Virus record (IMG/VR): IMGVR_UViG_3300043399_000788
Span: 1-64,000 of that record
Source of the DNA: a virus
DNA: 64,000 nucleotides
Reading direction: 5' to 3' (one strand)
Part shown: one piece after another, positions 3,065-32,800 of the stretch
Numbering within the stretch: the stretch's first letter is position 1
Layout: each line of letters starts with the position of its first letter
Notes under the pieces: model-generated
What the model saw: the letters and a program-made list of their open reading frames with translations, nothing else
What the model was told of the DNA's origin: nothing
Database searches by the model: none
Translations under genes and position numbers: made by a program

Positions 3065-4816
3065 TTATGTACCAGGAAGTCCAGCCCCAGTTGGAACAGT
3101 AGCAGCAGGTGTTCCCATACCAGCTTCTGCACCTGGTGTTGCACCAGCTGCTGCGCCCAATTCTCCTTCACCTGGAAGTCCAGGTTCTTCACTTGCTTCT
3201 AACCCTTCAATACCTTCAATATCTCCTGAAATATCCCCTGGAGTTATACCAACATTACGTAAGTCTGTTCCTTCAACATTTGGTGCGTTATCTGATCCAG
3301 ATTCTTCTTTCCAAAGTTTTTCGTTTTCTTTCATTTCAATCTCAGTAAGTCCTAGGTACTTCTTAAGAACGAAACGTTTGCTTAAGTATGGAACTTCTGC
3401 TAGCTGACCAAAGTTACTAATACGACTTGCATCAAGATCAATACTACGATAAGCAGCAAAGTTAAGTGGTTCGCTTAACTTTAATTCAAATAAGCTGTTA
3501 TCAACGTTAAATCCACGCCACTGTAAGAATAACTTAAATTCACGATCTAAGTTACCTGATATTAATGTTTGCAATCCTTTGCAGTAATTGTTGAATCTAT
3601 TTTCTTGAATAAGTGCTGTAGTAACTTTGCCGTCTGTGTAGGCCATAGTACCATCATCGGCACCAGTAGGCAAGTAACTACTAGGGATCCTAAGACCTCT
3701 AAGAAGCTTATTATTAAAATAACGTAAATCATCAATTTGTCCTAAGTTTTCACCACCTGGTAGTGTTTCAACTTTAGAACCACGACCTTCCGCAGTTTGA
3801 GGGAAGAAGTAATCTTCATTAATGCTTAGTGGGTTATAAGTAGCGTCCATAATATTTTGACCGCCACCAGTCATTGTTGGAATACGACGTTGATGTATCT
3901 CGTTTTTAACACGTTCAACGAACTGCATAGCTAAGTGACTTGGCATATTACCTGTATCAATGTAGAATACTCTACGTTCTGGTGCACGTTGAACACGATA
4001 AATTAAAATAGCATCTTCAAGTAATTCTTTTTGCTTGTATACTTTAAAAACGTTTTCAAGCACTGAAATACCAAATGGCCAATTAGAATCTAAGCCACTT
4101 GTTAAACTTAAATGTAAAACATGTTTGGCATCAATTGCACGCTCATTTTGTGCGTTACTAAAACGATTACCGCCAGTATATGGTTGTGTTGGTAATGTGT
4201 AACTACCAGTTGCTCCGCCTGATTGCGGGGCTCTAATATATACATCATTTGGTGTGTTAGTTGTAGCTGTTAAGTTCATAAAGTTAGGGCTTAAATCCTT
4301 AATGAAGTACATTTCAGGATTTTTTCCGTCACTTTCGTTTACTACAATTTTAGTAAGTTTAGACATATCAATCCAGTATAATTGAAATGTTTCTGGATCT
4401 CTAATGAATACTTGATCACCGTATTTTAATGTATTGCGTATCATTTTTGTGATACGTTTTTCCATTTCATTTAAGTTATACCAAGCTTTTAATTGCTCAG
4501 TTAAAATATCATTTTCAGTCTTTGTTGGTTTATCTTTATAATCAATAGTAAATGCAGTTTTTGTATCCTCAGATACTTGAGTACAAAAATCAGCAATAAT
4601 ATCTAATGCAGCATTAATTTCTGGATCTGCGTCCATATTTTCATATTGTGTATAACGTTCGATACGATTTGGATGTCCGGTATAAACATCGGGTAAAACG
4701 CTACCGTAATTCTTATATCCAAATTCTGGCATTACACCAGGGTTATTACTTCCGCCACCTAGCGGACTAAATCTTCCATCTAAATTAGGTGTTTTAAAGT
4801 GCTTCTTATAAGCCAT
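3065..4816 (-). CDS. Portal vertex protein (gp20-like)
   Basis: Motifs LLEDAILIYRVQRAPERRVFYIDTGNMP, EDYFFPQ..EGRGSKVETLPGGENLG, DLRYF..KL.RGLRIPSSYL. Confidence 0.95.
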   Translation of the reverse strand: MAYKKHFKTPNLDGRFSPLGGGSNNPGVMPEFGYKNYGSVLPDVYTGHPNRIERYTQYENMDADPEINAALDIIADFCTQVSEDTKTAFTIDYKDKPTKTENDILTEQLKAWYNLNEMEKRITKMIRNTLKYGDQVFIRDPETFQLYWIDMSKLTKIVVNESDGKNPEMYFIKDLSPNFMNLTATTNTPNDVYIRAPQSGGATGSYTLPTQPYTGGNRFSNAQNERAIDAKHVLHLSLTSGLDSNWPFGISVLENVFKVYKQKELLEDAILIYRVQRAPERRVFYIDTGNMPSHLAMQFVERVKNEIHQRRIPTMTGGGQNIMDATYNPLSINEDYFFPQTAEGRGSKVETLPGGENLGQIDDLRYFNNKLLRGLRIPSSYLPTGADDGTMAYTDGKVTTALIQENRFNNYCKGLQTLISGNLDREFKLFLQWRGFNVDNSLFELKLSEPLNFAAYRSIDLDASRISNFGQLAEVPYLSKRFVLKKYLGLTEIEMKENEKLWKEESGSDNAPNVEGTDLRNVGITPGDISGDIEGIEGLEASEEPGLPGEGELGAAAGATPGAEAGMGTPAATVPTGAGLPGT

Positions 4817-4842: not shown

Positions 4843-7281
4843 TTAAACAGCAAGCCTATTTGCTTGGCGTTGTTCATATACAAGTTTCTCAAAGTTTGAA
4901 CTTAAAGTTCCCATTTGTGTGTTAAGTGACAACAATAGTTGATTTGTTCCACTGCTTGATTCAATAAGTTTTTGTAAGTACTGCGAACTATTATCCTTAG
5001 ATATAGCACGTTCAATTCCTTTTGTATCTACTGGATCTGATAAACCATCAACAGCAGCTATTAATTGAGAATAGTCTACATTTAAGTTTACAGGAATATT
5101 TCTGCCGTCTGGTAAAGGAACTATTGCTTCAGTACCGTGCAGTAATTCCATATAACCCGATCTAGGTCCTGACACAATACCACCTTTAGCCCAACCCGAA
5201 CCCATTGGGTCAATATTACCTGAAGATGATCCAACTTCACCTTCAATTGCACCTTCGACACCGCCAATAATTGTTTCAAAAAGCCATTTGCCAATAGATG
5301 CACCGACTTTTGTTCCAGTTTGATCCCCCCAAGGGCTTTCTTCATAAAGGCCGTAAGCACCGCCGGCTAACCCGCCGGCGCCAGAACCAATGCTCCAACC
5401 AGCAGCAGCACCTGGTATAGCACCTACGCCACCTGCAAATAATCCTGCTATTCCACCTATTAATGCACCGATTGCCCCACCTGCTAATGAACCTGTACCA
5501 GCACTTGCTGCAACACCACCAACGCCACCTGCAACAGCACCAATATTTTCACCAACGGTCCCACCTACTTCTTGAGTAGTTGATTTTGTTGCATTTTCAC
5601 CAGTAATTTTTTCAACTGCACCAATAATTGAACTAGTCAATGCTTCAATTGATTCTCTAAAAGCACCAAGTATTGCTGTGCCACCTGGTCCACCTACTAA
5701 TTGAGTAAGTTCTAGATCCATGTTTTGCAAGGATTTTTTAAGTGATTGAGATAATTGATTTACGTTCGCCATTGCTTGTAACGCTGGATCAAGTAATTTG
5801 CCTGTCTCATCAGTTGCTCTAGCATCTTTTTGTGCTTTTAATGTTTTAGTAAATTCTTCATCACTCATAGCAATGCTGCCTTGAGTTTTCTTAATAACAC
5901 CGCCTAGATTTTCAAGTGCAACACCTAATGGACCTTCTTGAGCTTGTACATATTTACCATACTCTGCTAGTACTTTTTGATTTGATAAAATTTCTTGATC
6001 AAATTTACGCATAGTTGTAGCAGTTGCATCAACTGCATTTCCACTACGAACTGTACCTTGTTGCATGGCACTGATCATTTCAAGGAATGCTTTGTTTGCA
6101 CCAGAGTTTTGAGATAACCATACAGCAGTTTGTTGTGTAGTTGCTCTTCCATTTGCCAATAAATCATTAAAAGCATTTACACCTGCTTCACCAAATCTAT
6201 CTGATACAACACTAGTTGTTTCTTCAAACGTTTTATAAGCATCAGGAAACTTTTCACTTAAAGTCAACAATGCACTTTGTACTTGAGTATTAAGCGCTCG
6301 TTGTTCACCTTCTTTTTTCAATTCTTCAACTGACTTACCAGTTAAGTTAGCAAGTGTTTTTTGCTGTCCTGCTAGTTCAAGTGCAGCTTGTGCAGTTTCT
6401 TTCATGTTTAAATCAACTTTGGCACCCCTTAGTCCTGCTTGGAAATCTAAAAGATAATCAGGTAGTTCCTCAGCAGTAATACCAAGTGCAACAAATTGAT
6501 TTTCTAAATTTGATGTTTTAATAGTTTTACCTAATGCAGCAACTCTGTTAGTTCCATTAGTAACAGATCCACCAAAAGTTGCTAATGCTTCTCTATTACG
6601 TTGTACAAAATCTGCCATCTGACCCAATGTTAAATTCATTGAGTTAGCAGTGTCCATCAAATTCTCAAATCCTTCACTAGCAACCATACCAGTGTCAGTA
6701 ATTTTTTGATATGTGTTTAGAAAACCTTCTGCGGAACCTAGAGCAGTTCCTAGCATACCAGTAAGTGCAGGAGTAAGTTTGCCAAGTGTTTCTAGACCAA
6801 TGCCAGCAATCTCCAATGCTTTACCAAAGATACGCATCTTTCTTCCGCCAAAAGCGGTCAATGCATCCCCTGCTAAATCTGCACCAGACCCAACAGCTTC
6901 TAAACTTCCACCTGCAACAGCACCTGCTGCTTCAACTGCATCCCTGGCAGACATATTTGAATCAGTTAATCGTTTTAGTGAATTTCCAAATGATTCTGCT
7001 GCGCTTGCTGCTGCATTGCCAAGTCCTCGCATAGAAAACCCAGCTTTCTTTGTAGTTGATGCTAACTCATCAAAGTTTTTAACATTGTCACCAATACTGG
7101 TGTTCAAAATTTTAATTAACTGAGCTTGGCGATTTTGTTGTCCTGCTAAGTTTGCAGCAGCATTTTTGCCGACAGTTGCGCTTCCGCCAAGCGCATGTAA
7201 GATTTCTCTTAGTGTGCTTTCAGTTGCAGCGTTTACCGCGGTATACGTTGTACCGTTTATATCGAGAGTTACATCTGCCAT
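4843..7281 (-). CDS. Tape-measure-like tail protein
   Basis: 812 aa, Ala/Gly-rich and helical-looking, with a hydrophobic glycine-zipper segment and the C-terminal AKGGIVSGP..GY..LLHGTEAIVPLP motif; divergent from the hub genes. Confidence 0.65.
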   Translation of the reverse strand: MADVTLDINGTTYTAVNAATESTLREILHALGGSATVGKNAAANLAGQQNRQAQLIKILNTSIGDNVKNFDELASTTKKAGFSMRGLGNAAASAAESFGNSLKRLTDSNMSARDAVEAAGAVAGGSLEAVGSGADLAGDALTAFGGRKMRIFGKALEIAGIGLETLGKLTPALTGMLGTALGSAEGFLNTYQKITDTGMVASEGFENLMDTANSMNLTLGQMADFVQRNREALATFGGSVTNGTNRVAALGKTIKTSNLENQFVALGITAEELPDYLLDFQAGLRGAKVDLNMKETAQAALELAGQQKTLANLTGKSVEELKKEGEQRALNTQVQSALLTLSEKFPDAYKTFEETTSVVSDRFGEAGVNAFNDLLANGRATTQQTAVWLSQNSGANKAFLEMISAMQQGTVRSGNAVDATATTMRKFDQEILSNQKVLAEYGKYVQAQEGPLGVALENLGGVIKKTQGSIAMSDEEFTKTLKAQKDARATDETGKLLDPALQAMANVNQLSQSLKKSLQNMDLELTQLVGGPGGTAILGAFRESIEALTSSIIGAVEKITGENATKSTTQEVGGTVGENIGAVAGGVGGVAASAGTGSLAGGAIGALIGGIAGLFAGGVGAIPGAAAGWSIGSGAGGLAGGAYGLYEESPWGDQTGTKVGASIGKWLFETIIGGVEGAIEGEVGSSSGNIDPMGSGWAKGGIVSGPRSGYMELLHGTEAIVPLPDGRNIPVNLNVDYSQLIAAVDGLSDPVDTKGIERAISKDNSSQYLQKLIESSSGTNQLLLSLNTQMGTLSSNFEKLVYEQRQANRLAV

Positions 7282-7291
7282 TTTATGCTAT

Positions 7292-7320
7292 TATAAATAC
7301 CTTATGCCTTATTTTATTTA
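7292..7320. promoter_or_regulatory. Overlapping divergent late promoters (TATAAATA on +, TAAATA on -)
   Basis: Exact T4 late consensus TATAAATA at 7292-7299 upstream of the hub genes; TAAATA on the minus strand at 7315-7320 upstream of the tape-measure gene. Confidence 0.55.
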
Positions 7321-7332
7321 TTGGAATTCAAA

Positions 7333-8175
7333 ATGACAGATGAAAACCCTCTGAGCAAATTCAAGAGAAAGTCGTTTGATATACTTAATTTACCATCAAA
7401 AGGTCTTTTTTGGAAAGAAGGATCACTAAATTATAGGCCAAATATGACCGTTTTGCCAATGACTGGCAGAGACGAAAGCTTATTACTAAGTGCAACTGGC
7501 GTGCTTTTAGGGAGCATAGTTGCTGAGATTGTGCAACGCTGTGTACCTGAAATTGTTGATCCTTGGGAAATGCCAAGAGTAGATTTAGACGCAGTTATGA
7601 TTTCTATTAGATGTGCAAGCTATGGTACTCATATGAAAGTAGCACATAAATGTCCTCATTGTGAAAAAGTACACAACTACACCGTTGATCTAACAACTGT
7701 AGCTAATAGTATTGAATTACCAAATTATGATAATCCTCTTATCTTAAATAACGGGCTTACTATTTGGTTTAAACCACTAACTCTAAAAGAGAGTAACGAT
7801 GTAATTTTAGATCAAAATAGAAAAACTGCTGTAATTCAAAAAATCACAAGAGAAAATATTAGCGAAGATGAAAAAGCAAAGCTAATCAAAGATAACTTGT
7901 GGCAACTTACTGCTGATACAGTAAAAGCATTGACACTAAACATTAGCAAAATAGTTGCAGATGTTGATATTGTAGACAATCCTGCTTACATTGAAAATTG
8001 GTTACTTGAAGCAGACCTTGATTCTTACACTGCTGTTCAAAATCAAGTGGAAAAGATTGTTGCAGAATACAAAATCCCTAAGATAAAAGCAGAATGTTTT
8101 GATTGTCATAAAGATTTTGAGATTGAAGTTGAATTTAACCCAGCTGATTTCTTAAGCAAAAGCAAAGATGACTAA
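7333..8175 (+). CDS. Baseplate hub assembly protein (gp26-like)
   Basis: LPSKG.F, PMT..DE, D.DA.MISIR.ASYG, CPHC and a C-terminal CxxC. ATG at 7333 preferred over the upstream TTG. Confidence 0.75.
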   Translation: MTDENPLSKFKRKSFDILNLPSKGLFWKEGSLNYRPNMTVLPMTGRDESLLLSATGVLLGSIVAEIVQRCVPEIVDPWEMPRVDLDAVMISIRCASYGTHMKVAHKCPHCEKVHNYTVDLTTVANSIELPNYDNPLILNNGLTIWFKPLTLKESNDVILDQNRKTAVIQKITRENISEDEKAKLIKDNLWQLTADTVKALTLNISKIVADVDIVDNPAYIENWLLEADLDSYTAVQNQVEKIVAEYKIPKIKAECFDCHKDFEIEVEFNPADFLSKSKDD

Positions 8176-9181
8176 TAGAAATCCAGAGCTTTACCTAAGT
8201 ATAGATACACAAAAATGGAATTTAGATGTTATTGCAGTTCCGCCTAACAGAGAAATTCCAGTGTATCCTATGACTTGGCAAGACGAACTGGAATTAAAAA
8301 ATGCTGATGGTTTAATGAACGGTGCAGCAATGGCAAACATTGTGCAAAAGCGTATCCCTGCAATACGAAACAGTTGGAACGTTCCTGAACATCAGTGGAA
8401 TCGATTAGTTGGGGCATTGCATTTAGCTACACACGGTGAAAATCTTGAGATGAGATACGAGTGTAAAAAATGCCGAAGTATAAATGATTTAATAGTAAAT
8501 GCATCTAAGTTGATAGATGACCACAACATGCCAGATTATTCTAGCGTAAACATTGATGGGCTCACAATAAACTTTTCACCGCTTAATTACTTAGATTTAG
8601 TTAACATGAGGAACAGAGATTTTAGAATGGTAAAGATGTTGCTCAATGTTAACTCATTAACTAAGTTTGATCCAAAACAAATTCAAAAAGAATTAAAGTC
8701 ATACAATGACAATGACAGCTTAATTAAAACCAAACGAATTAAAAGTATCGAATACGAAGACCAGTCCTACACTGACAAATTTTTAATTAAAGATTTTCTT
8801 GATAATGCAAACAGAGAAATACAAGAACTTGTTAGTAATAAAGTCGATGCTATTAACAACTCAACTAACCCAAATATTGAAATTGCAGAATGTCCAGAAT
8901 GTCAACACAAAAATTCAATCACTGTTAACTTAGATCCTAGTGAAGATTTTAGATTTAGAATAACACGCATGAATGATGAACAAATTATTGATACCATCAA
9001 AATGTTTGATAAACAAAGTGCAGCAATTCGTGAAGAAGCAATGCGTATGAGTTGGGCAATGCGTGGCGGTGCAAACTTTATTGATGTCCTTAATATGTCC
9101 CCGAATGAAAGAAAAGCTGTAAGCGAATTAATCAAATCAAATATGGAAACAACTAAAAAGTCAAGGTTGCCATTCTTCTAA
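8168..9181 (+). CDS. Second gp26-like hub protein with gp51-like C-terminal extension
   Basis: Paralogous to the previous gene (PMT..DE, CKKC, CPEC), plus a tail WAMRGGANFIDVLNMSPNERKAVSELIKSNMETTKKSRLPFF resembling the gp51 hub catalyst. Confidence 0.65.
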   Translation: MTNRNPELYLSIDTQKWNLDVIAVPPNREIPVYPMTWQDELELKNADGLMNGAAMANIVQKRIPAIRNSWNVPEHQWNRLVGALHLATHGENLEMRYECKKCRSINDLIVNASKLIDDHNMPDYSSVNIDGLTINFSPLNYLDLVNMRNRDFRMVKMLLNVNSLTKFDPKQIQKELKSYNDNDSLIKTKRIKSIEYEDQSYTDKFLIKDFLDNANREIQELVSNKVDAINNSTNPNIEIAECPECQHKNSITVNLDPSEDFRFRITRMNDEQIIDTIKMFDKQSAAIREEAMRMSWAMRGGANFIDVLNMSPNERKAVSELIKSNMETTKKSRLPFF

Positions 9182-10188
9182 TGTATAACATACACTGTCA
9201 ATGGCACCCACTTAAAAAGTGTATTATTGGTCGTACATACTATCCTAGTTTTTTTCAAAACATTGCACCAGCAGATAAAATTGCAAAAGTTTGTGAGGAA
9301 ACTGAGCAAGACTTACAAGCACTTGTTAATATTTTAGAACACTTTAATGTTGAAGTGCTACGACCAAAACTTGACGAAAATGATAGATTTGAAAATTACA
9401 ATAGGTCCAATATTCCTAGACCTCCTATTGCTCCGCGAGATGCTCTACTCGTAATTGGAAACAATGTATACGAGTTTGGGGATGACCATATAAGCATAAG
9501 AGCTTGTATTGATGAAACACCAAAACGTTCACCCTTTGCAAAAAGTAGACAACCACTATATCTCCCAGCCCCATCAATAACACAACTGGGTAAAGATTTA
9601 CTTGTCGACACACAGTGTTTTAGTCATTGGGAATTGCAGTGGATTGAAAAACAACTACCCAATTATCGTGTAAACAAAATATCAGTAGGCGGTCACAATG
9701 ATGGTAGCTTTATAATATTAAAACCCGGCGTTGTTATTAGTGTGAAAAATACAATTGATTGGAATGAATATTTCCCAAATTGGAATGTTTTAGAAGTCAA
9801 TAACGATAAGCACACACATTGTAAGCAGTGGTTAATTGATTCCAAAATTAATCAAGGCAAGTGGTGGATACCTGGGCAAGAAGATGATAACGAACTTGCA
9901 GACTTTGTTGATAACTGGTTATCAAATTGGGTTGGATATGCTGCCGAAACCGTGTTTAGTATTAATGCATTGATAATTGACGAGAAACACGTAATCATCA
10001 ATACTCCTAGAGCAGATGTTATACAGTTCCTAAAAAGCAATGGAATCGAAACAATAGTATGTCCACAAAGACATCAATACTTTTGGGATAATGGGATACA
10101 TTGTATGACACTTGATTTAGTACGTGAAGGGGATATGTTTGATCTTTTTCCTAGTCGTAACTATCCTTTTATGTGTAAAGGATATTAA
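9181..10188 (+). CDS. Amidinotransferase (glycine/inosamine-phosphate amidinotransferase-like, pentein fold)
   Basis: W.PLK.CIIGR, ETEQDL, VEVLRP, PRD.LLVIG, GHNDG and C-terminal WDNGIHCMTLDL.R (His and Cys of the catalytic triad). Confidence 0.85.
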   Translation: MYNIHCQWHPLKKCIIGRTYYPSFFQNIAPADKIAKVCEETEQDLQALVNILEHFNVEVLRPKLDENDRFENYNRSNIPRPPIAPRDALLVIGNNVYEFGDDHISIRACIDETPKRSPFAKSRQPLYLPAPSITQLGKDLLVDTQCFSHWELQWIEKQLPNYRVNKISVGGHNDGSFIILKPGVVISVKNTIDWNEYFPNWNVLEVNNDKHTHCKQWLIDSKINQGKWWIPGQEDDNELADFVDNWLSNWVGYAAETVFSINALIIDEKHVIINTPRADVIQFLKSNGIETIVCPQRHQYFWDNGIHCMTLDLVREGDMFDLFPSRNYPFMCKGY

Positions 10189-10685
10189 TTTTCTTCTTAT
10201 GTTGTTGAGATGTACTACGTACATCTGTTCTGCGTGTTTACTTCGTAAACACTTGAACATTTTTTTCTATTAATTTAAATGCACAGTAATTAATTGTTCT
10301 TCTATACAGCTAACCGCTTAAGCGACTTAAAGTATTCATCTAGATATGATGTCATACTTTTCCTGTTTCCAGGAAAAGTATAGGAGGTCTTCATCTGAGT
10401 ACTCCATCATACTATGTTATAAGAGATTACATTGTTACATGCACGGAGGCGGTCGTCCGGTACCCCCTACTCTAGCTTTCTACGAACGGAACTTCACCAC
10501 GCCCTAACAAGCGAACGTGTGTTTTAGTTGCGGTTGTATCTTTTTCACAGAGCCGCGATCATTTAGCCTAAAGTTAGCCTTACTGTGCCCAATGCGACAA
10601 TGTTGGGGTGTCGCCAACCATCAAGTTGAACGTATATGGGGCTATATAGCCTAAGTTTAGCCTAAATGTGCCTAAAAAGAGGGTT
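10189..10685. ncRNA. Candidate structured non-coding element (ncRNA or single-strand DNA signal)
   Basis: ~500 bp with no ORF in the track, in an otherwise densely coding genome. Perfect stems at 10208-10226, 10234-10252 and 10354-10381; nested stem 10345-10351/10405-10411; GCGACA/TGTCGC stem near 10594-10614; phased GCCT(A/T)A repeats. Confidence 0.55.
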
Positions 10686-12383
10686 TCAGTATAACTGTTT
10701 TATGATTTGACGAATAGTGTCTTTTGAGCCAAAGTGTTGAGCAAATGTTATAGGTGTGCCATAATTATCGTGTAAGAGTAACATCTTGTTATAGTTAAGT
10801 AAATCTTTTTCTAAAGGTTGACTAATTTTTTCTCCAAATTCTTTCCAGTAATTAAAATTTAAGTAAATTTTAGTAATTACCTTCATGTCAATCTTTTTCA
10901 TATGGAAGATTAAGTTATTGTATAGCATTACCATGCTGTGCATTGCAAGAATATCGCCTAATGTAGCAGTATTCGTTCCTACAACTGTATTGGCAGAGTA
11001 ATATTCGCAATCATCGAGATATGTTAAAACATCATCTCTAGTTTTAACATCATACGGTAATCCAGTAATGTGTAGTGCAGGCACAACACGCAAGTCGTAT
11101 TTTTTTTGATATTCTTTGTTATATCCAGGGCTGTTAATTAACATGCACCAAATATGAGATAATATTGCACGCGGGCTTAGTTCCGCAAATTCTATTAGAT
11201 TTTGAGCATAATTTTCAAGTTTTTGACCAGGCATACCTAGCATAGTTTCAATATCAAATTGAAACTTTGGGTGCTTTTGCTTAGTTTTTACGATGTAATC
11301 TTTGTATTCTGACCAGGGAATATCTGGTCTATTAATGTTGCTCAACACATCCTGATCGATATCTTGCACAGTCATTGTAAACAATCTATTACCTGGATCA
11401 ACAGATTCAACGTAATCGATAATTTCAAAAACACGTTGTTTGTTTAGCTTAGCTAAGTTGTTAAAGGTTAGCTTAAAATTAGGATTGTTCTTTTCAAGCT
11501 CGCATGAATATTTGACAACTTCAATATCTTCTTTGAATAGACCAATATTTGCATCTACCCAACGAACATGTAGATTTAACTCATTAAACAAGTTAAGATC
11601 AAGTTTCCAATCGTATTCTTTGCGTGTTACTTTATGATGTAACCCACTGCTCCAATCACAAAATGCACATGAGTAAGGACAACCTTTTGTGAATTCCCAG
11701 TTCATTATGATAGTAAGCTTATCATTCTTGTTTTTAATTTGATTTACTGCAAAATGAACTTCATCTAGATTATCTAAGTATGGGCTAAGTGTATTAAACT
11801 CTGCATCCTTAAAACGCTTGTATGGTTCAATAACTGGTTTATTATCTGTCATGTAAGAAATATTTGTAGCTGCACTATCAACTGTGTTTGAGTTAATCAT
11901 TGTGTCGATCATTACAGTGAAAGCTTCTTCGCCATCACCATATGCAACGGCATCTAACCATTCATGTTCTTTCCAAAACAGTTCTAATTCTTTATGTGCG
12001 TATATTTCAGGTCCGCCCCCCAACAAAATAATGTGTGGGTACTTGTTTTTAATAAAACGACCAAGACGAGAGTATAAATTGTAATTCCAAATGTATAAAC
12101 CAAAACACATTATGTCTGGTTTTTCGTTTTCAATTATTCTAGTAATTTCGTTTTCACATAAATCAACGTTTATATGTATTGCATCTAACCAATTTACTTT
12201 ATTGTTGTTTTTACCGTGGTGCTTATACCAACTTTTTAGTACCCAATAAGCAGGGTTGATGTGTATGCCGTTATTAAAAGGAATTGTTCCAGAAATGAAC
12301 TTAATGTTCACCGTTGGTTTATTTTCAAAGTAGTTTGAGTGTGGAAAATTCTGAGAAAATTCCCTTTGCAAGATGCTATCCAA
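10686..12383 (-). CDS. Cobalamin-binding-type radical SAM protein
   Basis: N-terminal B12-binding-like segment (PDIMCFGLYIWN...LLGGGPE...YGDGEEAF) and CxxxCxxC motif TKGCPYSCAFCDW. Confidence 0.85.
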   Translation of the reverse strand: MDSILQREFSQNFPHSNYFENKPTVNIKFISGTIPFNNGIHINPAYWVLKSWYKHHGKNNNKVNWLDAIHINVDLCENEITRIIENEKPDIMCFGLYIWNYNLYSRLGRFIKNKYPHIILLGGGPEIYAHKELELFWKEHEWLDAVAYGDGEEAFTVMIDTMINSNTVDSAATNISYMTDNKPVIEPYKRFKDAEFNTLSPYLDNLDEVHFAVNQIKNKNDKLTIIMNWEFTKGCPYSCAFCDWSSGLHHKVTRKEYDWKLDLNLFNELNLHVRWVDANIGLFKEDIEVVKYSCELEKNNPNFKLTFNNLAKLNKQRVFEIIDYVESVDPGNRLFTMTVQDIDQDVLSNINRPDIPWSEYKDYIVKTKQKHPKFQFDIETMLGMPGQKLENYAQNLIEFAELSPRAILSHIWCMLINSPGYNKEYQKKYDLRVVPALHITGLPYDVKTRDDVLTYLDDCEYYSANTVVGTNTATLGDILAMHSMVMLYNNLIFHMKKIDMKVITKIYLNFNYWKEFGEKISQPLEKDLLNYNKMLLLHDNYGTPITFAQHFGSKDTIRQIIKQLY

Positions 12384-12401: not shown

Positions 12402-14096
12402 TTATTTTAAGAATTGAATCCAATTTTTTTGTTGATTAAAATAGGTATAAAACGATTGCGGGCCATCTAAAGTTTCAACAAGTATCATTGGAAATCCAAA
12501 AATATCTTTATTTTTGAGTATATCGTTAGCACACTTTTCTCCAAAAGTTATCCAATTTTTGCTTCTTAATGCATTAGAAAAGTGTTTAGTATTAATATTC
12601 CATTTTTTGTTTTTACAAAAATCAGCGTAACTATTATAGAAGTAACTCATGCCTATCATAGCTACATGATTAGCAAAAGTTGCACTCATAGTATCAGTAA
12701 CAAATTTACTTTTTGTCCAAGATGAGGAATTTAAATTTTCATTTAACTCTTGTAGTGTTTTAAAGTTCTCAGGAGTTGAATGCAAATATCCTAATTCGTT
12801 AATTTTTAATTTGAATTTATCAATGTATTCAGGTGATGCAGCAGGACTATTTGGTAAAAAGTTAAACAAAGATCCTGCAACTTTGTAAACATCTAATGTT
12901 GCAAATTCTAATAACATGTTAGCATATGAATCGAGAGTTTGTCCTGGTAAACCAATGATTAACTCTATCATAAACTTTATTTGTGGATTACGTTGTTTTA
13001 CATCAATCAATAATTGCTTATGCTCGTCCCAGGGAACATCTGGTCTTGAAATATTTTTAAGTATTTCTGAACTGATGTCTTGTATTGCAATAGTATGGGT
13101 AACACTTCCTGGAGATTGCTGTTCTAATTTCTCAATAAGAGAATAGACTACATGTTTCTTTACTTTACTATAATTAGATAAACGTAGTTCAAATTTTGGA
13201 TTAACTTTTTTAAGAGTTAAAGCAGTATCAACTATTTCAACATCTTCTTTGTGAATACCAATATTAGCATCAATCCAGTTTGCAACAAGATCAATTTCAT
13301 TAAAGAAATCTAAATCTGCTTTATAGTCATAAGTTTTGCGATATGTTTTATGATGTAATCCACTACTCCAATCACAGAAAGTACAAGAAAACGGACACCC
13401 ACGAGTAAATTCCCAATTTATGATTGGGAAAACATTTGATGTTTCACGTAAATTTTTTATAGTATTAGCAATATCTTCTTTGTTATGCAAGTAAGGGCTA
13501 ATTGTTTTGTATTCAGGATCATTAAATCTTCTATATCCAACGTTGATACTACTTTCATTTTGTTTATAAACAAAATTACATGGTGTCAGTTTAACACTGT
13601 TTATATCAAACATAGAATCAATTAAGGTAGTGAATGCTTCTTCACCATCACCATACACAACTACATCAACAAAATCATGCGTTTCCCAAAAAGTACTTGA
13701 AGTTTTATGAACATCTACTTCAGGTCCTCCTGCAAGTATTATAGTTGATGGTCTGCGTTTTTTAATTTCTTTTCCTAAGTTAGAATAGCGACTATGATTC
13801 CACAAGTACAGGCCTAGACAAACAATGTCTATATCTTCTTCTTCAATTATTTTTAAAAAGTCATCAACACTTAAGTTACTGTCATTTAGTTGTGGCGTTT
13901 TCCAAGATAATCGATTAGGAAAATTACCATTTAAATCGTAGTAACATTTAATAAACCAACTACTGGGATTAATCCATAACTGATTATCCCAATAAATATT
14001 TGGGATCATTCCCGCAAAAAATTTAATATTAACTTTTTCTTTATTTGCAAACTTATTCGCATAAGGAAAAGTAAGTTTAAATGTTTCTTCAATCAT
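12402..14096 (-). CDS. Cobalamin-binding-type radical SAM protein (paralog of neighbour)
   Basis: DIVCLGLYLWN...LAGGPE...YGDGEEAF and TRGCPFSCTFCDWSSGLHHK, nearly the same motif as the adjacent gene. Confidence 0.85.
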   Translation of the reverse strand: MIEETFKLTFPYANKFANKEKVNIKFFAGMIPNIYWDNQLWINPSSWFIKCYYDLNGNFPNRLSWKTPQLNDSNLSVDDFLKIIEEEDIDIVCLGLYLWNHSRYSNLGKEIKKRRPSTIILAGGPEVDVHKTSSTFWETHDFVDVVVYGDGEEAFTTLIDSMFDINSVKLTPCNFVYKQNESSINVGYRRFNDPEYKTISPYLHNKEDIANTIKNLRETSNVFPIINWEFTRGCPFSCTFCDWSSGLHHKTYRKTYDYKADLDFFNEIDLVANWIDANIGIHKEDVEIVDTALTLKKVNPKFELRLSNYSKVKKHVVYSLIEKLEQQSPGSVTHTIAIQDISSEILKNISRPDVPWDEHKQLLIDVKQRNPQIKFMIELIIGLPGQTLDSYANMLLEFATLDVYKVAGSLFNFLPNSPAASPEYIDKFKLKINELGYLHSTPENFKTLQELNENLNSSSWTKSKFVTDTMSATFANHVAMIGMSYFYNSYADFCKNKKWNINTKHFSNALRSKNWITFGEKCANDILKNKDIFGFPMILVETLDGPQSFYTYFNQQKNWIQFLK

Positions 14097-14613
14097 CTTT
14101 GTTGCAAAGCTGCTTTATAATGTCAGCGTTTATATTCCAAAAACTATTAAATTCAGTTATTACCCATGGATCATACTTTTCACCATGGTACCACATAAAA
14201 CTAAGACCAGGATTAACTTGTGGCCTCCACTTTGCTTCAAATGCAACATATGCACCTTTGCGATTAAACTTCATTGCAAGTATATTGAAGTCTGTCTCAT
14301 CACAAGTATCTCGTATTTGTTCTATCCAACCATCTAGTTGTTTGTTAGAACCAGCGTACAATTGATGAAAGGCAAAGTCCTTATAGAACTTTGCCTCTAA
14401 GTTAAGTTTGGGAAAACTGGGTCCTGGAATTATGTCCCCTTTAAAGCCACGAATTTGTTCTTCACTTAAGGTATTTTTACGATGACTATTTTTACCACCA
14501 ATAAACGCACCTGAGTTTGGAACTCTTACAAAACTTTCTCCGTATAAGTTGGAAAGAAAATCTGCGACTTCTCTTTCCCATCCGTTACCTTTAGCTTTCC
14601 CTTTACTTGGCAA
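14089..14613 (-). CDS. Holliday junction resolvase-like PD-(D/E)xK nuclease
   Basis: K.KGNGWEREVA, RVPNSGA, GDII.......LEAKFY; sits in the gp46/47 operon; TTG start. Confidence 0.75.
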   Translation of the reverse strand: MPSKGKAKGNGWEREVADFLSNLYGESFVRVPNSGAFIGGKNSHRKNTLSEEQIRGFKGDIIPGPSFPKLNLEAKFYKDFAFHQLYAGSNKQLDGWIEQIRDTCDETDFNILAMKFNRKGAYVAFEAKWRPQVNPGLSFMWYHGEKYDPWVITEFNSFWNINADIIKQLCNKDD

Positions 14614-29821: not shown

Positions 29822-32800
29822 ATGGCATACAGAAGGTCTTTAGATTTTCTACCAAACGTTTTTAGAACAGAGGTAAATGAAAAATTTTTACACGCCACTA
29901 TTGATCAGTTAATTAGTGAACCAGAATTAAAGAGAGTTGATGGTTATATTGGTCGCAGATTTAGTCCTGTTTCAGGATCAAATGATTCTTTTATTAATGA
30001 GTTAACAACATCAAGACAAAATTATCAACTTGAACCTCACACAACATATCTCGATGATGATAGCAAAGTTAGATTTACTGCAGGTTATGTTGATTTATTA
30101 CGTAGAATTGAATCTTTAGGTGGTTTTACAAATAACCATTCGAGATTGTTTAGCGATACAACTTACAACTATGACGGTTTTATTGACTACGATAAATTCT
30201 TAAACTACAGTTCTTATTACTGGATACCAAACGGACCAAATGCTGTTCCAGTTTACTCAACTGAAATTCCATTACAGCAAGAATTTAATGTAGTTCCACC
30301 AAATTTATATCAAATTGTTAACGGTGAATATGAAAAAGAAAAGTTTGATTTTTTAGCATTTGATGTTAGTGAAAATACTATTTCTCGAGTAAGAGAAGAT
30401 GGTATTAGATTTGATGTAACTGGTGATAGAATTAATCCAACTATTAGATTAGCACGCGGTGGCGTTTATACATTTAATGTAGATCAAGTTGGTCATGGTC
30501 TCTTTATACAAACTCAACCAGGTACCACTGAAGAATTAGGCTGGCAAGGTAATTTAAGTAGTAGAGATGTTTTTGGTGTTGAAAACAATGGAGAAGACGT
30601 TGGTACTATTACTTTTAAAGTACCAGAAATAAATGCTCAAGATTTCTTCTTAAGAATGCCAGTTTTTGCTTCAGCCAATTTGTTAGCGCACAGCAGACGA
30701 CGCAATAGAGATTTGCGTTATAATGAAATTCATTATCAAAAGTATAACGATATAGTTTCAAAATTTGGTGGTATTGATGGGCAATATATGTTGGAAGGAA
30801 AAACTATTGTTTTCCCACGTGATCCAGCAACCGGAAAAAATCCTCAACCTTGGGCACCAAATACAGAATTTTTTGAAGGTGATTTGATACAATACGCTAA
30901 TACAGTTTATCGAGTATTAGAAACATATACAACTGGCAGGATGTTTACAGATACAAAGCTAGAAGTTTATGATTTACAAGAATCTTGGTTTGATCCAGAC
31001 CCATTTGATTCTGTTGATCATTCATTTGATTCACGCGGGTTTGATATTGGAAACGATGTAAGTTTTGAACATCGTAGAGGTATTTTTAATATCACAATTA
31101 ATCAAGATGGGTATGTTGTTTTACAACCAGGTAGTGTAATACCAAGAAATAATCAAGTAAAAATACTTGAAGGTGTTGCATATGGTAACAAGAGTGTTTA
31201 TCGTAATAGTAACGATGACATCGTCCTAATGCCTTTAACAACTGCAAACTTAGATAGATTCTATTATGCAGATAGTTTAGATCCAAACATTGGTGGCGTA
31301 ATTGAAATTGTAGATCAAAATAATAACAGTTACATTGATGTTCTTGGAAGTATTATCGGTAAACCTAATTACGAAAGTCCAAACAACGTTAAACTCACAA
31401 ACGGATTAAAAATAAAGTTTTTAACAGATGTTATCCCAACAGAATACGCAAATAAAACTTATTATGTTGAAGGTGTTGGTAAAGCAATAAAGCTAGTCGA
31501 TGAAGATACTCTGCTAGCTAATGAAACATGGTTAAATACTATTGAAAGTCCTTTTGATTTAAATGATTTTGATGCTGAAGGTTTTTCAGCGTCAACAAAT
31601 AGCCCATTAAACCCAGACTATTTTGTAATCAATAGAAGCAGTATTGAACAAAGCGGATGGACACGACACAATCGTTGGTTCCATAAAGATGTAATTGAAC
31701 TAACATCTAAATATAATAATTTTAATATTTCTATTGATTCTTCTGCTAGAGCAAAAAGACCAATTTTAGAATTTGATCCAAACTTGCAATTGTTTAATTT
31801 TGGACAAATCGCTAAAAAAGCAGTTGATGTTATAGATACAAAAACTGTAGATGCATTAAGTTTGGTAGAAGGCAAAGCTGTAAAGTCTATTGATTCAAAT
31901 ATAGTTTATTTTACAGGATCAGCATCAGCAGTAGCTGAGTTCCGGTTAGAAAAAGAAAGAGAAGGTTACACAGTAGTTCGTGAAACTAGTCAAGGTGGCG
32001 TAGTTACTATACAAATGAAGCTGCAAGGAATATCAGGTTACTATATTGATGATGTTCCGCTATCTCCAGGTATGCGAGTAATATTTACTGCCGACACTGA
32101 CCCTGATGTTCGCAACAAAATTTATCAAGTAGAATGGATTAGACCACAAAACGAAACAGATGACCGAGTATGGGATTTTGTTTCTGATGGTAGCACTAAC
32201 AGTTTTGATTTAAATTTCAATGTAGCTGATGCTAGTAGACTACAAGTATTTGTGAACGGAATTGATGCTAGTTCACAAGGATATTATTGGTCTTATTTGC
32301 TAGCAACACAAAACATTGTATTTTCTTTAAACACTCCTCCAGCAGATGCAAATATTACAGTATCTCTTGAATTTGACGAACAGATCCATCTTGTATTAGC
32401 AGAAGACAGTGAAGTACAGGAAGGTGATTGTGTTTATGTTAAGCAAGGTTTAAACTATCAAGGTAAAATGTTCCACTTCCTCAACGATATGTGGAAAGAA
32501 GCTCAACAGAAAACTAAAATTAATCAACCTCCTTTATTTGATTTATATGATGAAAATAGAGTAAGCTTTGGTGATACTACTGCTTATAGCAGCACAGATT
32601 TTAATGGATGTAAACTATTTGGGTATGAAATAGGAACTGGTATTGTTGATCCTATACTAGGAATTAAACTAAAGTATAAAAATATCAATAATATTGGTGA
32701 TATTGTTTTAGGAGATTTTATTTCTAAAGATACTTTTCTTTATAGAGAAGGTCAGCAAAGTATAACTAAATCAACTATTGGGGCTAAAGTAAAAGAAAAT

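What the first reader, a model, noticed from the sequence alone, without database searches (positions are those of the whole stretch)
10189..10685. ~500-bp densely structured non-coding element between convergent amidinotransferase and radical SAM genes
Seen: this is the largest intergenic gap in the window. It contains AGATGTAC-TAC-GTACATCT (10208-10226); GTGTTTAC-TTC-GTAAACAC (10234-10252), itself enclosed by TGTTC/GAACA; and a 12-bp stem ATACTTTTCCTG/CAGGAAAAGTAT (10354-10381) whose loop is GAAA (GNRA) on the minus strand. That stem is nested with a GGAG/CTCC stem inside a 7-bp TATGATG/CATCATA helix, forming a three-way junction. It also has GTTGCGGTT/AGCCGCGAT (9 bp with G-U wobbles on the plus strand), GCGACA/TGTCGC, and a locally GC-rich core (CGGAGGCGGTCGTCCGGTACCCCC). 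Inference: this is far more structure than a bidirectional terminator needs, so it may be an undescribed large phage ncRNA, a ribozyme-like RNA, or a folded ssDNA signal. The strand is ambiguous. Being flanked by three modifying enzymes raises the possibility that it is their substrate or scaffold.
Basis: partly seen in the sequence, partly recalled or inferred. Interest (0 to 1): 0.8.

Follow-up and report, generated by a model that had tools for sequence, protein, structure and literature searches.

The report
Twin-word structured RNA of giant phages
The gene-free gap holds a real, roughly 470-base folded non-coding RNA on the minus strand. It belongs to a large uncatalogued RNA family of giant T4-like phages, shows the same 7-letter word in two loops, does not depend on the neighbouring modifying enzymes, and its job is still unknown.

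Summary
The gap is GC-enriched (46-50% against about 33%). It folds better than shuffles, with z -4.9 on the minus strand and -2.4 on the plus strand.

It is not a local oddity. A 20-nt core of the gap occurs exactly in 65 IMG/VR phage contigs and in no credible bacterial genome. In 37 distinct copies the minus-strand fold has 84 pairs, 37 of them with compensatory changes, and 98% of cells pair against 33-42% in slid controls. G·U patterns place the RNA on the minus strand, downstream of the rSAM/PDDEXK/gp46-gp47-gp55 gene run.

Two hairpin loops carry an identical heptamer, AGAUGAA in this window. That word changed at least 13 times in the family, always in both loops, and has no complement inside the RNA.

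A close relative (L003) keeps the RNA at 88% identity but lacks the amidinotransferase and both radical SAM genes. The "substrate or scaffold" idea therefore fails.

No Rfam family matches, including Polynucleobacter-1. Cultured phages 121Q, RaK2 and GAP32 carry distant relatives: they share a core hairpin, and 121Q has it in the same genome slot.

This scan has already found the same family about ten times on other DNA. Function remains unknown.

The parts
10203..10675 (-). Whole conserved RNA module. The 5' end lies about 10-13 nt after the rSAM stop codon (10686-10688). The 3' end is not mapped and lies somewhere between about 10300 and 10203.
   Evidence: The block is conserved at 83-88% in L002 and L003 while the flanking genes differ. 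Relatives' contigs from several studies cover only 10203-10667. CM R1 scores 130 bits at 10325-10480 on the minus strand.
10648..10668 (-). 5' arm of the long imperfect closing helix of the 5' domain (the 'TAGCCTAA repeats')
   Evidence: Inverted repeat I1, 21 nt, 86% complementary to 10560-10580. It pairs in both the single-sequence fold and the clade fold. L027 shows one compensatory A-U to U-A change.
10560..10580 (-). 3' arm of the same closing helix. L002 has a 25-nt hairpin inserted here.
10594..10614 (-). Hairpin GCGACA/UGUCGC in the 5' domain
   Evidence: Compensatory changes within the clade: GUGACA/UGUCAC in L002 and GAGACA/UGUCUC in L027.
10527..10559 (-). Helix GCGG.../...CCGC with a U-rich loop. 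It corresponds to family helix A2 columns 275-306.
   Evidence: The family pairs 275-306, 276-305, 277-304 and 281-298 each show 2-3 Watson-Crick pair types.
10495..10522 (-). Helix corresponding to A2 columns 241-266. It contains tandem G·U pairs on the minus strand.
   Evidence: Columns 247-260 and 248-259 read C·A in 36 of 36 sequences on the plus strand, which is G·U on the minus strand. They sit between covarying pairs.
10444..10475 (-). Invariant core, RNA sequence CUAGAGUAGGGGGUACCGGACGACCGCCUCCG. It forms a hairpin GGGGG/CCUCC around CGG/CCG.
   Evidence: The 20-nt motif is found exactly in 65 IMG/VR contigs. These columns are invariant in A3 and form helices 2-3. The same hairpin with compensatory changes occurs in RaK2 and GAP32 (GGGAG/CUUCC) and in 121Q (GAGAG/CUUUC).
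10383..10405 (-). Twin-word hairpin A. The word AGAUGAA is the reverse complement of 10390-10396.
10354..10381 (-). 12-13-bp hairpin between the twin words, with a GAAA loop on the RNA strand
   Evidence: Helix 4 has 6 pairs with changes on both sides, and G·U appears only on the minus strand (UG 30, GU 17, UG 10, GU 31). The loop is inverted in L002.
10335..10344 (-). Twin word B. AGAUGAA is the reverse complement of 10335-10341. Its 5' flank UCUAG (reverse complement of 10340-10344) pairs with CUAGA next to the core (reverse complement of 10471-10475).
   Evidence: Helix 1 is 97.9% paired, with U-A 17 / U·G 17 at the variable position.
10315..10324 (-). Small clade-specific hairpin CGCUUAAGCG
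   Evidence: Conserved in window, L002 and L003; L027 has CGCUGAAGCG.
10208..10266 (.). Two hairpins (10208-10226; 10226-10259 enclosing 10234-10252) followed by T7 on the plus strand. They are probably the intrinsic terminator of the plus-strand baseplate/amidinotransferase operon and the 3' boundary of the RNA module.
   Evidence: Sequence. They are conserved with the module in all clades. L027 has a compensatory AGAUGUGC/GCACAUCU. The simple terminator scan did not call them, so this part is inference.

Best explanation
Window 10203-10675 encodes, on the minus strand, a stand-alone structured non-coding RNA of about 470 nt. It belongs to a large family confined to giant T4-like phages of the 121Q/RaK2 lineage, here mostly uncultured freshwater phages.

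Shown:
- A multi-helix fold is kept by compensatory changes.
- A 30-nt hairpin core is invariant.
- The core is followed by two hairpin loops that display the same purine-rich heptamer (RGAURAW; AGAUGAA in this window) on either side of a 13-bp hairpin.
- The RNA lies at the 3' end of the leftward gp55-gp47-gp46-nuclease gene run. In this phage two radical SAM genes have been inserted into that run.
- The RNA is kept when the neighbouring genes are exchanged.

Inferred:
- In this clade it is made by read-through from the upstream gene, because only about 10 nt separate it from three different upstream genes. It may then be trimmed to a stable RNA.
- It acts in trans, not on its neighbours.
- The two exposed identical words are its specificity element. 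They would contact two copies of one short partner, either a pyrimidine-rich nucleic-acid sequence or the two halves of a dimeric protein, and the partner changes from phage to phage.
- The invariant core is the constant 'business end', serving as a fold nucleus or a binding site for something conserved.

The hairpins at 10208-10259 are the terminator of the opposing baseplate operon and the outer limit of the module.
For: Conservation:
- The 20-nt core occurs in 65 IMG/VR contigs. In 185,579 prokaryote genomes it gives only 2 chance-like hits, both in GC-rich bacteria.
- The RNA is more conserved than its flanks: 83-88% against about 75-81%.

Structure:
- The plus-orientation RNAalifold run already gave 31 of 61 pairs with double-sided changes.
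- The minus-strand fold has 84 pairs, 37 with double-sided changes, and 98% of cells paired against 33-42% when partners are slid.
- On A3, 98.5% of cells pair against 37-50% slid, with 0 of 500 shuffles as high.

Strand:
- The minus alignment folds at -140 kcal/mol against -116 for plus.
- In the 51 pairs common to both folds, non-Watson-Crick states are A·C on plus (G·U on minus) 37 times against 7.
- The 13-14-bp hairpin is continuous only on the minus strand.
- The single-sequence z-score is -4.87 on minus and -2.43 on plus.

Twin words:
- The paired columns share full mutual information.
- There are at least 13 parsimony changes on a tree built from the rest of the RNA, identical in both loops, with one discordant taxon.
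- No internal complement exists, even allowing G·U.

Independence from neighbours:
- L003 lacks the amidinotransferase and rSAM genes.
- L002 and L008 carry SegE-type GIY-YIG genes there instead.

Not coding:
- No ORF over 65 aa exists under table 11, TAG=Q or table 4.
- Indels of 1, 7 and 25 nt separate close copies.

Synteny and distant relatives:
- 121Q has an 836-nt unannotated gap in the same slot and on the same strand.
- The core hairpin is shared, with compensatory changes.
Against: - There is no direct evidence of a transcript. No RNA run was shown to hold the sequence; the runs labelled 'RNA?' are probably DNA and are kept as contigs only.
- No promoter or clean minus-strand terminator was found, so both ends are unknown.
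- A few invariant G·U pairs can be drawn on the plus strand, for example A2 columns 280-301.
- The trans-acting role and the partner of the twin words are inference only. The one test possible here was negative: the word or its complement is not enriched in the phage's own genome (4 genome fragments, 2 distinct words).
- The link to cultured-phage RNAs rests on the core hairpin, synteny and strand. nhmmer and blastn find nothing, and CM R1 reaches only 22 bits in RaK2.
Confidence: 0.72

Rival explanations
1. The element is a cis-acting 3' untranslated region. Under this reading it is a large structured tail that stabilises or terminates the leftward operon mRNA, combined with a bidirectional terminator, and has no trans function.
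For: It directly follows whatever gene lies upstream, with a gap of about 10 nt and no promoter of its own in this clade. It sits between convergent operons, and hairpins with a T-run lie at its far end.
Against: About 470 nt, an invariant 30-nt core, 37 covarying pairs and in-step twin loops are far more than protection or termination needs. The upstream gene is exchangeable, being rSAM, PDDEXK or GIY-YIG. The probable relatives in 121Q are separate units with their own TGnTATAAT promoter and terminator, present in four copies at unrelated places.
Confidence: 0.12
2. The RNA is a catalytic or ligand-binding RNA (a ribozyme or riboswitch-like sensor), and its invariant core is an active or binding site.
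For: An invariant core embedded in covarying helices is the usual signature of such RNAs.
Against: There is no match to any ribozyme or riboswitch family in Rfam 15, even at E up to 10. No gene lies downstream in the same orientation to be regulated. Nothing here tests catalysis.
Confidence: 0.08
3. The element works at the DNA level. It could be a replication origin or ssDNA signal, a packaging site, iterons, or a conserved target next to which homing endonuclease genes insert.
For: It lies beside recombination and nuclease genes, and different nuclease genes sit next to it in different phages: GIY-YIG, PDDEXK, and endonuclease VII in 121Q. It has an AT-rich tract and TAGCCTAA repeats.
Against: Wobble tolerance is asymmetric between the strands, which fits a transcribed RNA better than duplex DNA. 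The TAGCCTAA repeats are the two arms of one helix, not iterons, and the word occurs nowhere else in the 64-kb window. Being a favoured landing place for homing endonuclease genes is compatible with an RNA gene and does not replace it.
Confidence: 0.05
4. One reading: the RNA is the substrate or scaffold of the flanking amidinotransferase and B12-radical SAM enzymes. A related version is that the gap encodes their small peptide substrate (RiPP-like).
For: Physical adjacency in this one phage.
Against: L003 keeps the RNA at 88% identity without any of the three genes. L002 has the amidinotransferase but a GIY-YIG gene where the rSAM genes would be. About 40 main-clade copies have neither. Small ORFs in the gap are broken by indels between close copies, and substitutions follow stems, not codons.
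Confidence: 0.03

Closest known systems
'Twin-box / twin-word' RNA of giant T4-like phages
   Same: Size of about 410-490 nt, knotted multi-helix fold, and one short purine-rich word shown twice and changed in step. Position after a small nuclease gene at the end of the gp55-gp47-gp46 run, and the same strand. Two of those findings share 23 of 76 short words with this window's RNA.
   Different: This window's clade (window, L002, L003, L027) has a diverged 5' domain closed by the long TAGCCTAA helix and lacks the GAGGAG box of the main clade. Here the upstream neighbours are radical SAM genes.
Unannotated ~520-nt RNA-like elements of cultured giant phages (E. coli 121Q/PBECO4/Sharanji, Cronobacter GAP32, Klebsiella RaK2 and others)
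   Same: Same genome slot and strand in 121Q: baseplate hub plus small ORF on one side, gp46/gp47/late sigma on the other. They share the core hairpin UAGGGRG..ACCGG..CCGCYUCCG with compensatory changes, and a similar downstream AAUYCUC box. They are conserved without annotation in 71 phage records.
   Different: No detectable similarity outside the core. They have their own promoter and a G/C hairpin terminator, and occur in 4-5 or more paralogous copies per genome, against one copy per fragment here. I did not verify a twin word in them.
GOLLD and ROOL (Rfam; large ornate phage-associated RNAs; cryo-EM shows RNA-only homo-oligomers, PMC12286853)
   Same: Large, intricately folded, phage-borne orphan RNAs with no known function.
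   Different: No Rfam match. This RNA is not next to tRNA genes; there are none in the window. GOLLD and ROOL have no in-step twin word. Oligomerisation was not tested.
Polynucleobacter-1 RNA motif (Rfam RF01718; Weinberg et al. 2010, PMC2864571)
   Same: Freshwater/estuary origin and orphan status. Earlier notes of this scan name it as the closest known family.
   Different: The RF01718 covariance model finds nothing at E up to 10 in the window's genome, four relatives' records and five cultured giant phages. Nothing appears by cmscan either.

Membership tests
Twin-word RNA family of giant T4-like phages (uncatalogued) | Invariant core hairpin GGGGG-UAC-CGG-loop-CCG-CCUCC | tested here: met
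   Window 10445-10466 carries the exact 20-nt motif shared by 65 contigs. Helices 2-3 are 100% paired.
Twin-word RNA family of giant T4-like phages (uncatalogued) | Two hairpin loops with the same heptamer, changed in step across the family | tested here: met
   AGAUGAA occurs at the reverse complement of 10390-10396 and of 10335-10341. Family columns share full mutual information, with at least 13 in-step changes.
Twin-word RNA family of giant T4-like phages (uncatalogued) | Covariation-supported multi-helix fold on the strand of the upstream nuclease / gp46-gp47 genes | tested here: met
   CM R1 scores 130 bits on the minus strand.
Twin-word RNA family of giant T4-like phages (uncatalogued) | Position at the end of the gp55-gp47-gp46(-nuclease) run, facing the baseplate hub genes | tested here: met
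   Pfam hits. tblastn against the annotated 121Q locus.
Polynucleobacter-1 (RF01718) | Match to the Rfam covariance model at or near the gathering score of 37 bits | tested here: not met
   No hit at E up to 10 in G000 or four relatives' records, nor in the RNAs of five cultured phages (the best hit was 10 bits, elsewhere in GAP32).
Any Rfam 15 family (GOLLD, ROOL, HEARO, wcaG, ribozymes, riboswitches) | cmscan match at the gathering score | tested here: not met
   0 hits in the window and in 13 relatives. The best sub-threshold match was wcaG at 14.6 bits against a required 42.
Intrinsic (bidirectional) terminator only | A short GC-rich hairpin plus a U-run accounts for the conserved block | tested here: not met
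   Only 10226-10266 fits this pattern. The conserved, covarying block is about 470 nt.
Protein-coding gene or RiPP precursor | A conserved open frame with codon-like substitution | tested here: not met
   ORFs are 65 aa or shorter under three genetic codes. Frame-breaking indels separate copies that are 83-88% identical.
tRNA / tmRNA | ARAGORN detection | tested here: not met
   0 genes in the window.

The most novel reading that the evidence does not exclude
The twin loops may be a re-programmable recognition element. Under this reading the RNA reads one short sequence twice, on DNA or RNA of the host, of the phage itself or of a competing phage. The rapid in-step switching among closely related phages (at least 13 switches) would then reflect an arms race or a self/non-self code. 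That would make this a new class of RNA-specified recognition system in giant phages, with several differently programmed paralogues in cultured phages such as 121Q.
Probability: 0.15. Interest if true: 0.9.

Novelty: categorically new. Interest (0 to 1): 0.7.

Why it matters
Large, intricately folded RNAs with unknown jobs are rare, and each one decoded so far has revealed new biology. This family is widespread in giant T4-like phages. It is not in Rfam and I found no paper describing it.

Its unusual feature is a short word displayed twice that changes often and always in both places. That pattern indicates a specific but fast-evolving partner.

Probable distant relatives sit unannotated in easily grown E. 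coli phages (121Q, and Sharanji on K-12), so the question can be addressed at the bench.

For this window in particular, the result separates the RNA from the amidinotransferase/radical SAM genes. Those genes should be interpreted on their own.

Tried and rejected
- **Plus-strand reading.** My first fold suggested the plus strand because of a few invariant U·G pairs. Folding both orientations and counting wobble states reversed this.
- **Rfam.** No family matched in gathering or E-value mode. RF01718 was searched directly in 10 records with no match.
- **Cultured phages by blastn.** Neither the gap, the 5-kb neighbourhood, a main-clade copy nor the 45-nt core gave a credible match in INPHARED.
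- **Second pattern.** TTGCGGTTG..AGCCGCGAT gave mostly chance hits.
- **The search for related loci** with the rSAM protein found nothing.
- **Expression.** No RNA holder was listed. The three runs labelled 'RNA?' are kept as contigs and are probably DNA. They cover only the conserved block in relatives, which shows conservation, not transcription.
- **Twin-word target.** The word has no complement inside the RNA, even allowing G·U. No third covarying column exists. The word or its complement is not enriched in the phage's own genome (4 fragments, 2 words). tRNA genes are almost absent on these fragments.
- **Second pseudoknot.** Pairing of the box A flank CUCRG with YUGAG before the GAGGAG box is 5 of 5 in only 12 of 38 copies, which is weak.
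- **Promoters and terminators.** The scan found nothing convincing on either strand next to the RNA.
- **PA5oct.** Its four published ncRNAs (PMC7318152) are not matched by CM R1, and ncRNA002 lacks the core.
- **Direct similarity to 121Q.** nhmmer with the family alignment against the 121Q locus gave no hit.
- **Alternative genetic codes.** TAG=Q and table 4 open no gene in the gap.

Full report
**1. The observation**

The gap 10189-10685 lies between an amidinotransferase-like ORF (9181-10188, plus strand; tblastn relatives are annotated glycine amidinotransferase) and the first of two B12-binding radical SAM ORFs (10686-12383 and 12402-14096, minus strand). GC content rises to 46-50% at 10400-10650 against about 33% around it. 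The single sequence folds better than dinucleotide shuffles on both strands, and clearly better on the minus strand: z -4.87 with 0 of 100 shuffles as good, against z -2.43. No tRNA or tmRNA is present, and no Rfam 15 family matches at gathering score or at E up to 10.

**2. It is a conserved element that does not depend on its neighbours**

A pattern search with the 12-bp hairpin found two IMG/VR contigs, L002 and L003. The gap is 83% identical to L002 and 88% identical to L003. The flanking coding DNA is less conserved or is replaced altogether.

- In L003 the element sits directly between a 64-aa ORF that follows the gp26-like hub gene and the PDDEXK nuclease gene. The amidinotransferase and both radical SAM genes are absent.
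- In L002 the amidinotransferase is present, but a 355-aa SegE-type GIY-YIG/NUMOD3 gene replaces the radical SAM genes.

The element is therefore not tied to the modifying enzymes. Indels of 1, 7 and 25 nt between these close copies break every small ORF. No frame longer than 65 aa opens under table 11, TAG=Q or table 4.

**3. It belongs to a large family**

The GC-rich core GGAGGCGGTCNNCCGGTACCCC (window 10445-10466) occurs exactly in 65 IMG/VR contigs. In one genome each of 185,579 prokaryote species it gives only two chance-like hits, both in GC-rich bacteria. blastn shows that window 10326-10564 is recognisable at about 70-75% identity in many of these contigs. Alignments of 52 and then 38 distinct copies show helices full of compensatory changes. 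The window, L002, L003 and L027 form their own clade. It shares the core, the twin-word region and three helices with the main clade, but its 5' domain has diverged.

**4. Structure and strand**

RNAalifold in the plus orientation already gave 31 of 61 pairs with changes on both sides. At first I read a few invariant U·G pairs as pointing to the plus strand. Two things made me fold both orientations: the finding that the element abuts the 3' end of a GIY-YIG gene in the main clade, and earlier notes of this scan that place the RNA behind such a gene.

- The minus alignment folds at -140.2 kcal/mol with 86 pairs; the plus alignment folds at -115.5 with 75 pairs.
- In the 51 pairs predicted in both orientations, the non-Watson-Crick states are A·C on plus (that is, G·U on minus) 37 times against 7.
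- Several helices are continuous only on the minus strand. Columns 60-76 read UA 21 / CA 14. Columns 61-75 read AC 33 / AU 3. Columns 247-260 and 248-259 read CA in 36 of 36.
- The plus-strand wobble pairs at 52-474 and 203-376 are better explained by the clean covarying pair 376-474, which reads CG 25 / UA 11.

On the minus strand the main-clade fold has 84 pairs, 37 with double-sided changes. 98% of cells pair against 33-42% when partners are slid. An RNA-strand alignment that includes the window clade (A3) was scored with the pair-counting tool. It gave 98.5% paired against 37-50% slid, a covariation score of 0.187 against 0.119 ± 0.006, and 0 of 500 shuffles as high. The 13-bp hairpin shows G·U at four pairs on this strand.

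The RNA therefore runs from about 10675 leftward, on the same strand as the radical SAM, PDDEXK and gp46/gp47/gp55-like genes. Those gene identities were confirmed by tblastn against the annotated 121Q locus (33-42% identity).

**5. Anatomy in the window (RNA strand, 5' to 3')**

- A long imperfect helix made by the two 'TAGCCTAA' repeat blocks (10668-10648 with 10580-10560) closes a 5' domain. That domain contains the GCGACA/UGUCGC hairpin, which shows compensatory changes in L002 and L027.
- Two family-wide covarying helices follow, at 10559-10527 and 10522-10495.
- Next comes the invariant core hairpin (10475-10444).
- After a linker comes hairpin A with the word AGAUGAA (10405-10383).
- The 12-13-bp hairpin with a GAAA loop follows (10381-10354).
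- Word B is AGAUGAA (10341-10335). Its 5' flank UCUAG pairs with CUAGA beside the core, giving a long-range helix that is 97.9% paired.
- A small clade-specific hairpin lies at 10324-10315, followed by an A/U-rich stretch.
- The module ends with the two hairpins at 10259-10208.

On the plus strand the outer of those two hairpins is followed by T7, so it probably terminates the baseplate/amidinotransferase operon. This is inference; the simple scan did not call it. The TAGCCTAA 'iterons' noted by another first-stage finding are thus the two strands of one helix.

**6. The twin words**

In every copy the two loops carry the same heptamer. The variants seen are AGAUGAA, AGAUAAA, AGAUGAU, GGAUAAU, GGAUAAA and GGAUGAU, plus GACGAAA in the outlier L052.

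- The three variable positions have full mutual information between the two loops and with no other column.
- On a tree built from the rest of the RNA, the word changes at least 13 times. The change is identical in both loops each time. One taxon (L036) differs at the last position.
- No segment of the RNA is complementary to the word, even allowing G·U.
- The first purine of word B pairs with an invariant U, so that helix tolerates either G or A. A similar, weakly supported pairing can be drawn for word A. Intramolecular pairing therefore does not explain the identity.
- Something outside the RNA that distinguishes G from A must read both loops.
- The one trans test possible here was negative: neither the word nor its complement is enriched in the phage's own genome. 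That test had low power, with four genome fragments and two distinct words.

**7. Cultured relatives**

The nearest cultured phages by the hub protein are the 121Q/PBECO4, RaK2, GAP32, PA5oct and XaC1 group, at about 26% identity. 121Q shows the same gene order: hub, a 69-aa ORF, an 836-nt unannotated gap, endonuclease VII, then gp46-, gp47- and late-sigma-like genes on the other strand.

- The gap sequence is conserved in 71 cultured-phage records, with 4-5 places per record, and is almost never annotated.
- 121Q has four paralogous copies, each with a TGnTATAAT promoter and a CCCCUGCGGGGGG terminator. GAP32 has at least five.
- My covariance model R1 (153 positions, from A3) does not reach the 121Q copy. 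It does hit RaK2 at 7238-7344 with 22 bits, E 0.037 genome-wide.
- A degenerate core pattern hits only RaK2 7248 and GAP32 35521, with no control hits. Both places are homologous to the 121Q RNA, at 63-64% over 216-558 nt.
- The core hairpin shows compensatory changes across the groups: GGGGG/CCUCC here, GGGAG/CUUCC in RaK2 and GAP32, GAGAG/CUUUC in 121Q.

I read this as probable distant homology. The support is the core, the genome slot and the strand; it is not shown by full-length alignment.

The four ncRNAs published for PA5oct (PMC7318152) are not matched.

**8. Comparison with known families**

No Rfam family matches. Polynucleobacter-1 (RF01718) is the family that earlier notes of this scan call the closest. 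Its model finds nothing at E up to 10 in the window's genome, four relatives' records and five cultured giant phages. The 2010 paper lists it only as a freshwater/Burkholderiales orphan. GOLLD and ROOL are comparable in kind, being large ornate phage-borne orphans that form RNA-only oligomers (PMC12286853), but they are unrelated in sequence and context. I found no paper describing this RNA.

**9. Verdict**

The finding is real and the RNA reading is right. The strand is the minus strand. The tie to the modifying enzymes is wrong. The RNA belongs to a family this scan has already met about ten times on other genomes.

The best-supported working model is a trans-acting structured RNA whose two identical loops read a fast-changing partner. 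That part is inference. No transcript has been shown for this clade.

Noticed in passing
L002:4196-4223 vs window 10354-10381: The tetraloop of the 12-bp hairpin is reverse-complemented in L002 (GAAA on the plus strand; TTTC in the window and L003) while both arms are identical. This is a small hairpin-mediated inversion, so the loop sequence is not under selection.
   Followed up: partly
L002 about 4417-4441 (between window 10574 and 10575): A 25-nt insertion (GTTAGAAGAACGCTTTGCGCTCTTC) that is itself a hairpin sits inside one arm of the long closing helix of the RNA.
   Followed up: no
L008:4298-4732, L002:4633-5700, window 14089-14613, L121:7874-8365: Four different nuclease genes sit next to the RNA gene in different phages: a minimal 144-aa SegE-type GIY-YIG, a GIY-YIG+NUMOD3, a PDDEXK_15 and endonuclease VII. 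One possible explanation is that homing-type nuclease genes land beside a highly conserved RNA gene. Nothing shows a partnership.
   Followed up: partly
121Q (NC_025447.1) 90279-90727, 192836-193296, 247457-248031, 326602-327132; GAP32 35.2, 98.8, 177.5, 261.5, 340.7 kb: Cultured giant phages carry 4-5 or more paralogous, unannotated ~500-nt RNA-like units. Each has a TGnTATAAT promoter and a G/C hairpin terminator. Some records annotate small 'hypothetical proteins' over them.
   Followed up: partly
RaK2 NC_019526.1 6672-7325 (ORF014w): This annotated hypothetical ORF overlaps the RNA-like element that carries the family core (7248-7275, opposite strand). The ORF may be spurious.
   Followed up: no
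window 7321-9181 vs L002:1994-3042, L003:10206-11254, L008:2791-3860: The window has two T4_baseplate (gp26/gp51-like) paralogues of 284 and 337 aa. Relatives, and 121Q, have one hub gene followed by a 64-72-aa ORF.
   Followed up: no
L112:18789-18862 (contig of L046): ARAGORN calls a tRNA with anticodon CTA (amber-reading) in a related phage contig. No other tRNA was found in about 390 kb of related fragments.
   Followed up: no
window 29822-44173: A single 4783-aa ORF is followed by two ORFs of about 1600 aa each. I did not examine them.
   Followed up: no
PA5oct MK797984.1 75670-77180: In the slot between the hub gene and the gp46-like gene, PA5oct has about 1.5 kb annotated only with 38-50-aa ORFs. 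An RNA of this kind could be hidden there, but R1 did not match.
   Followed up: no
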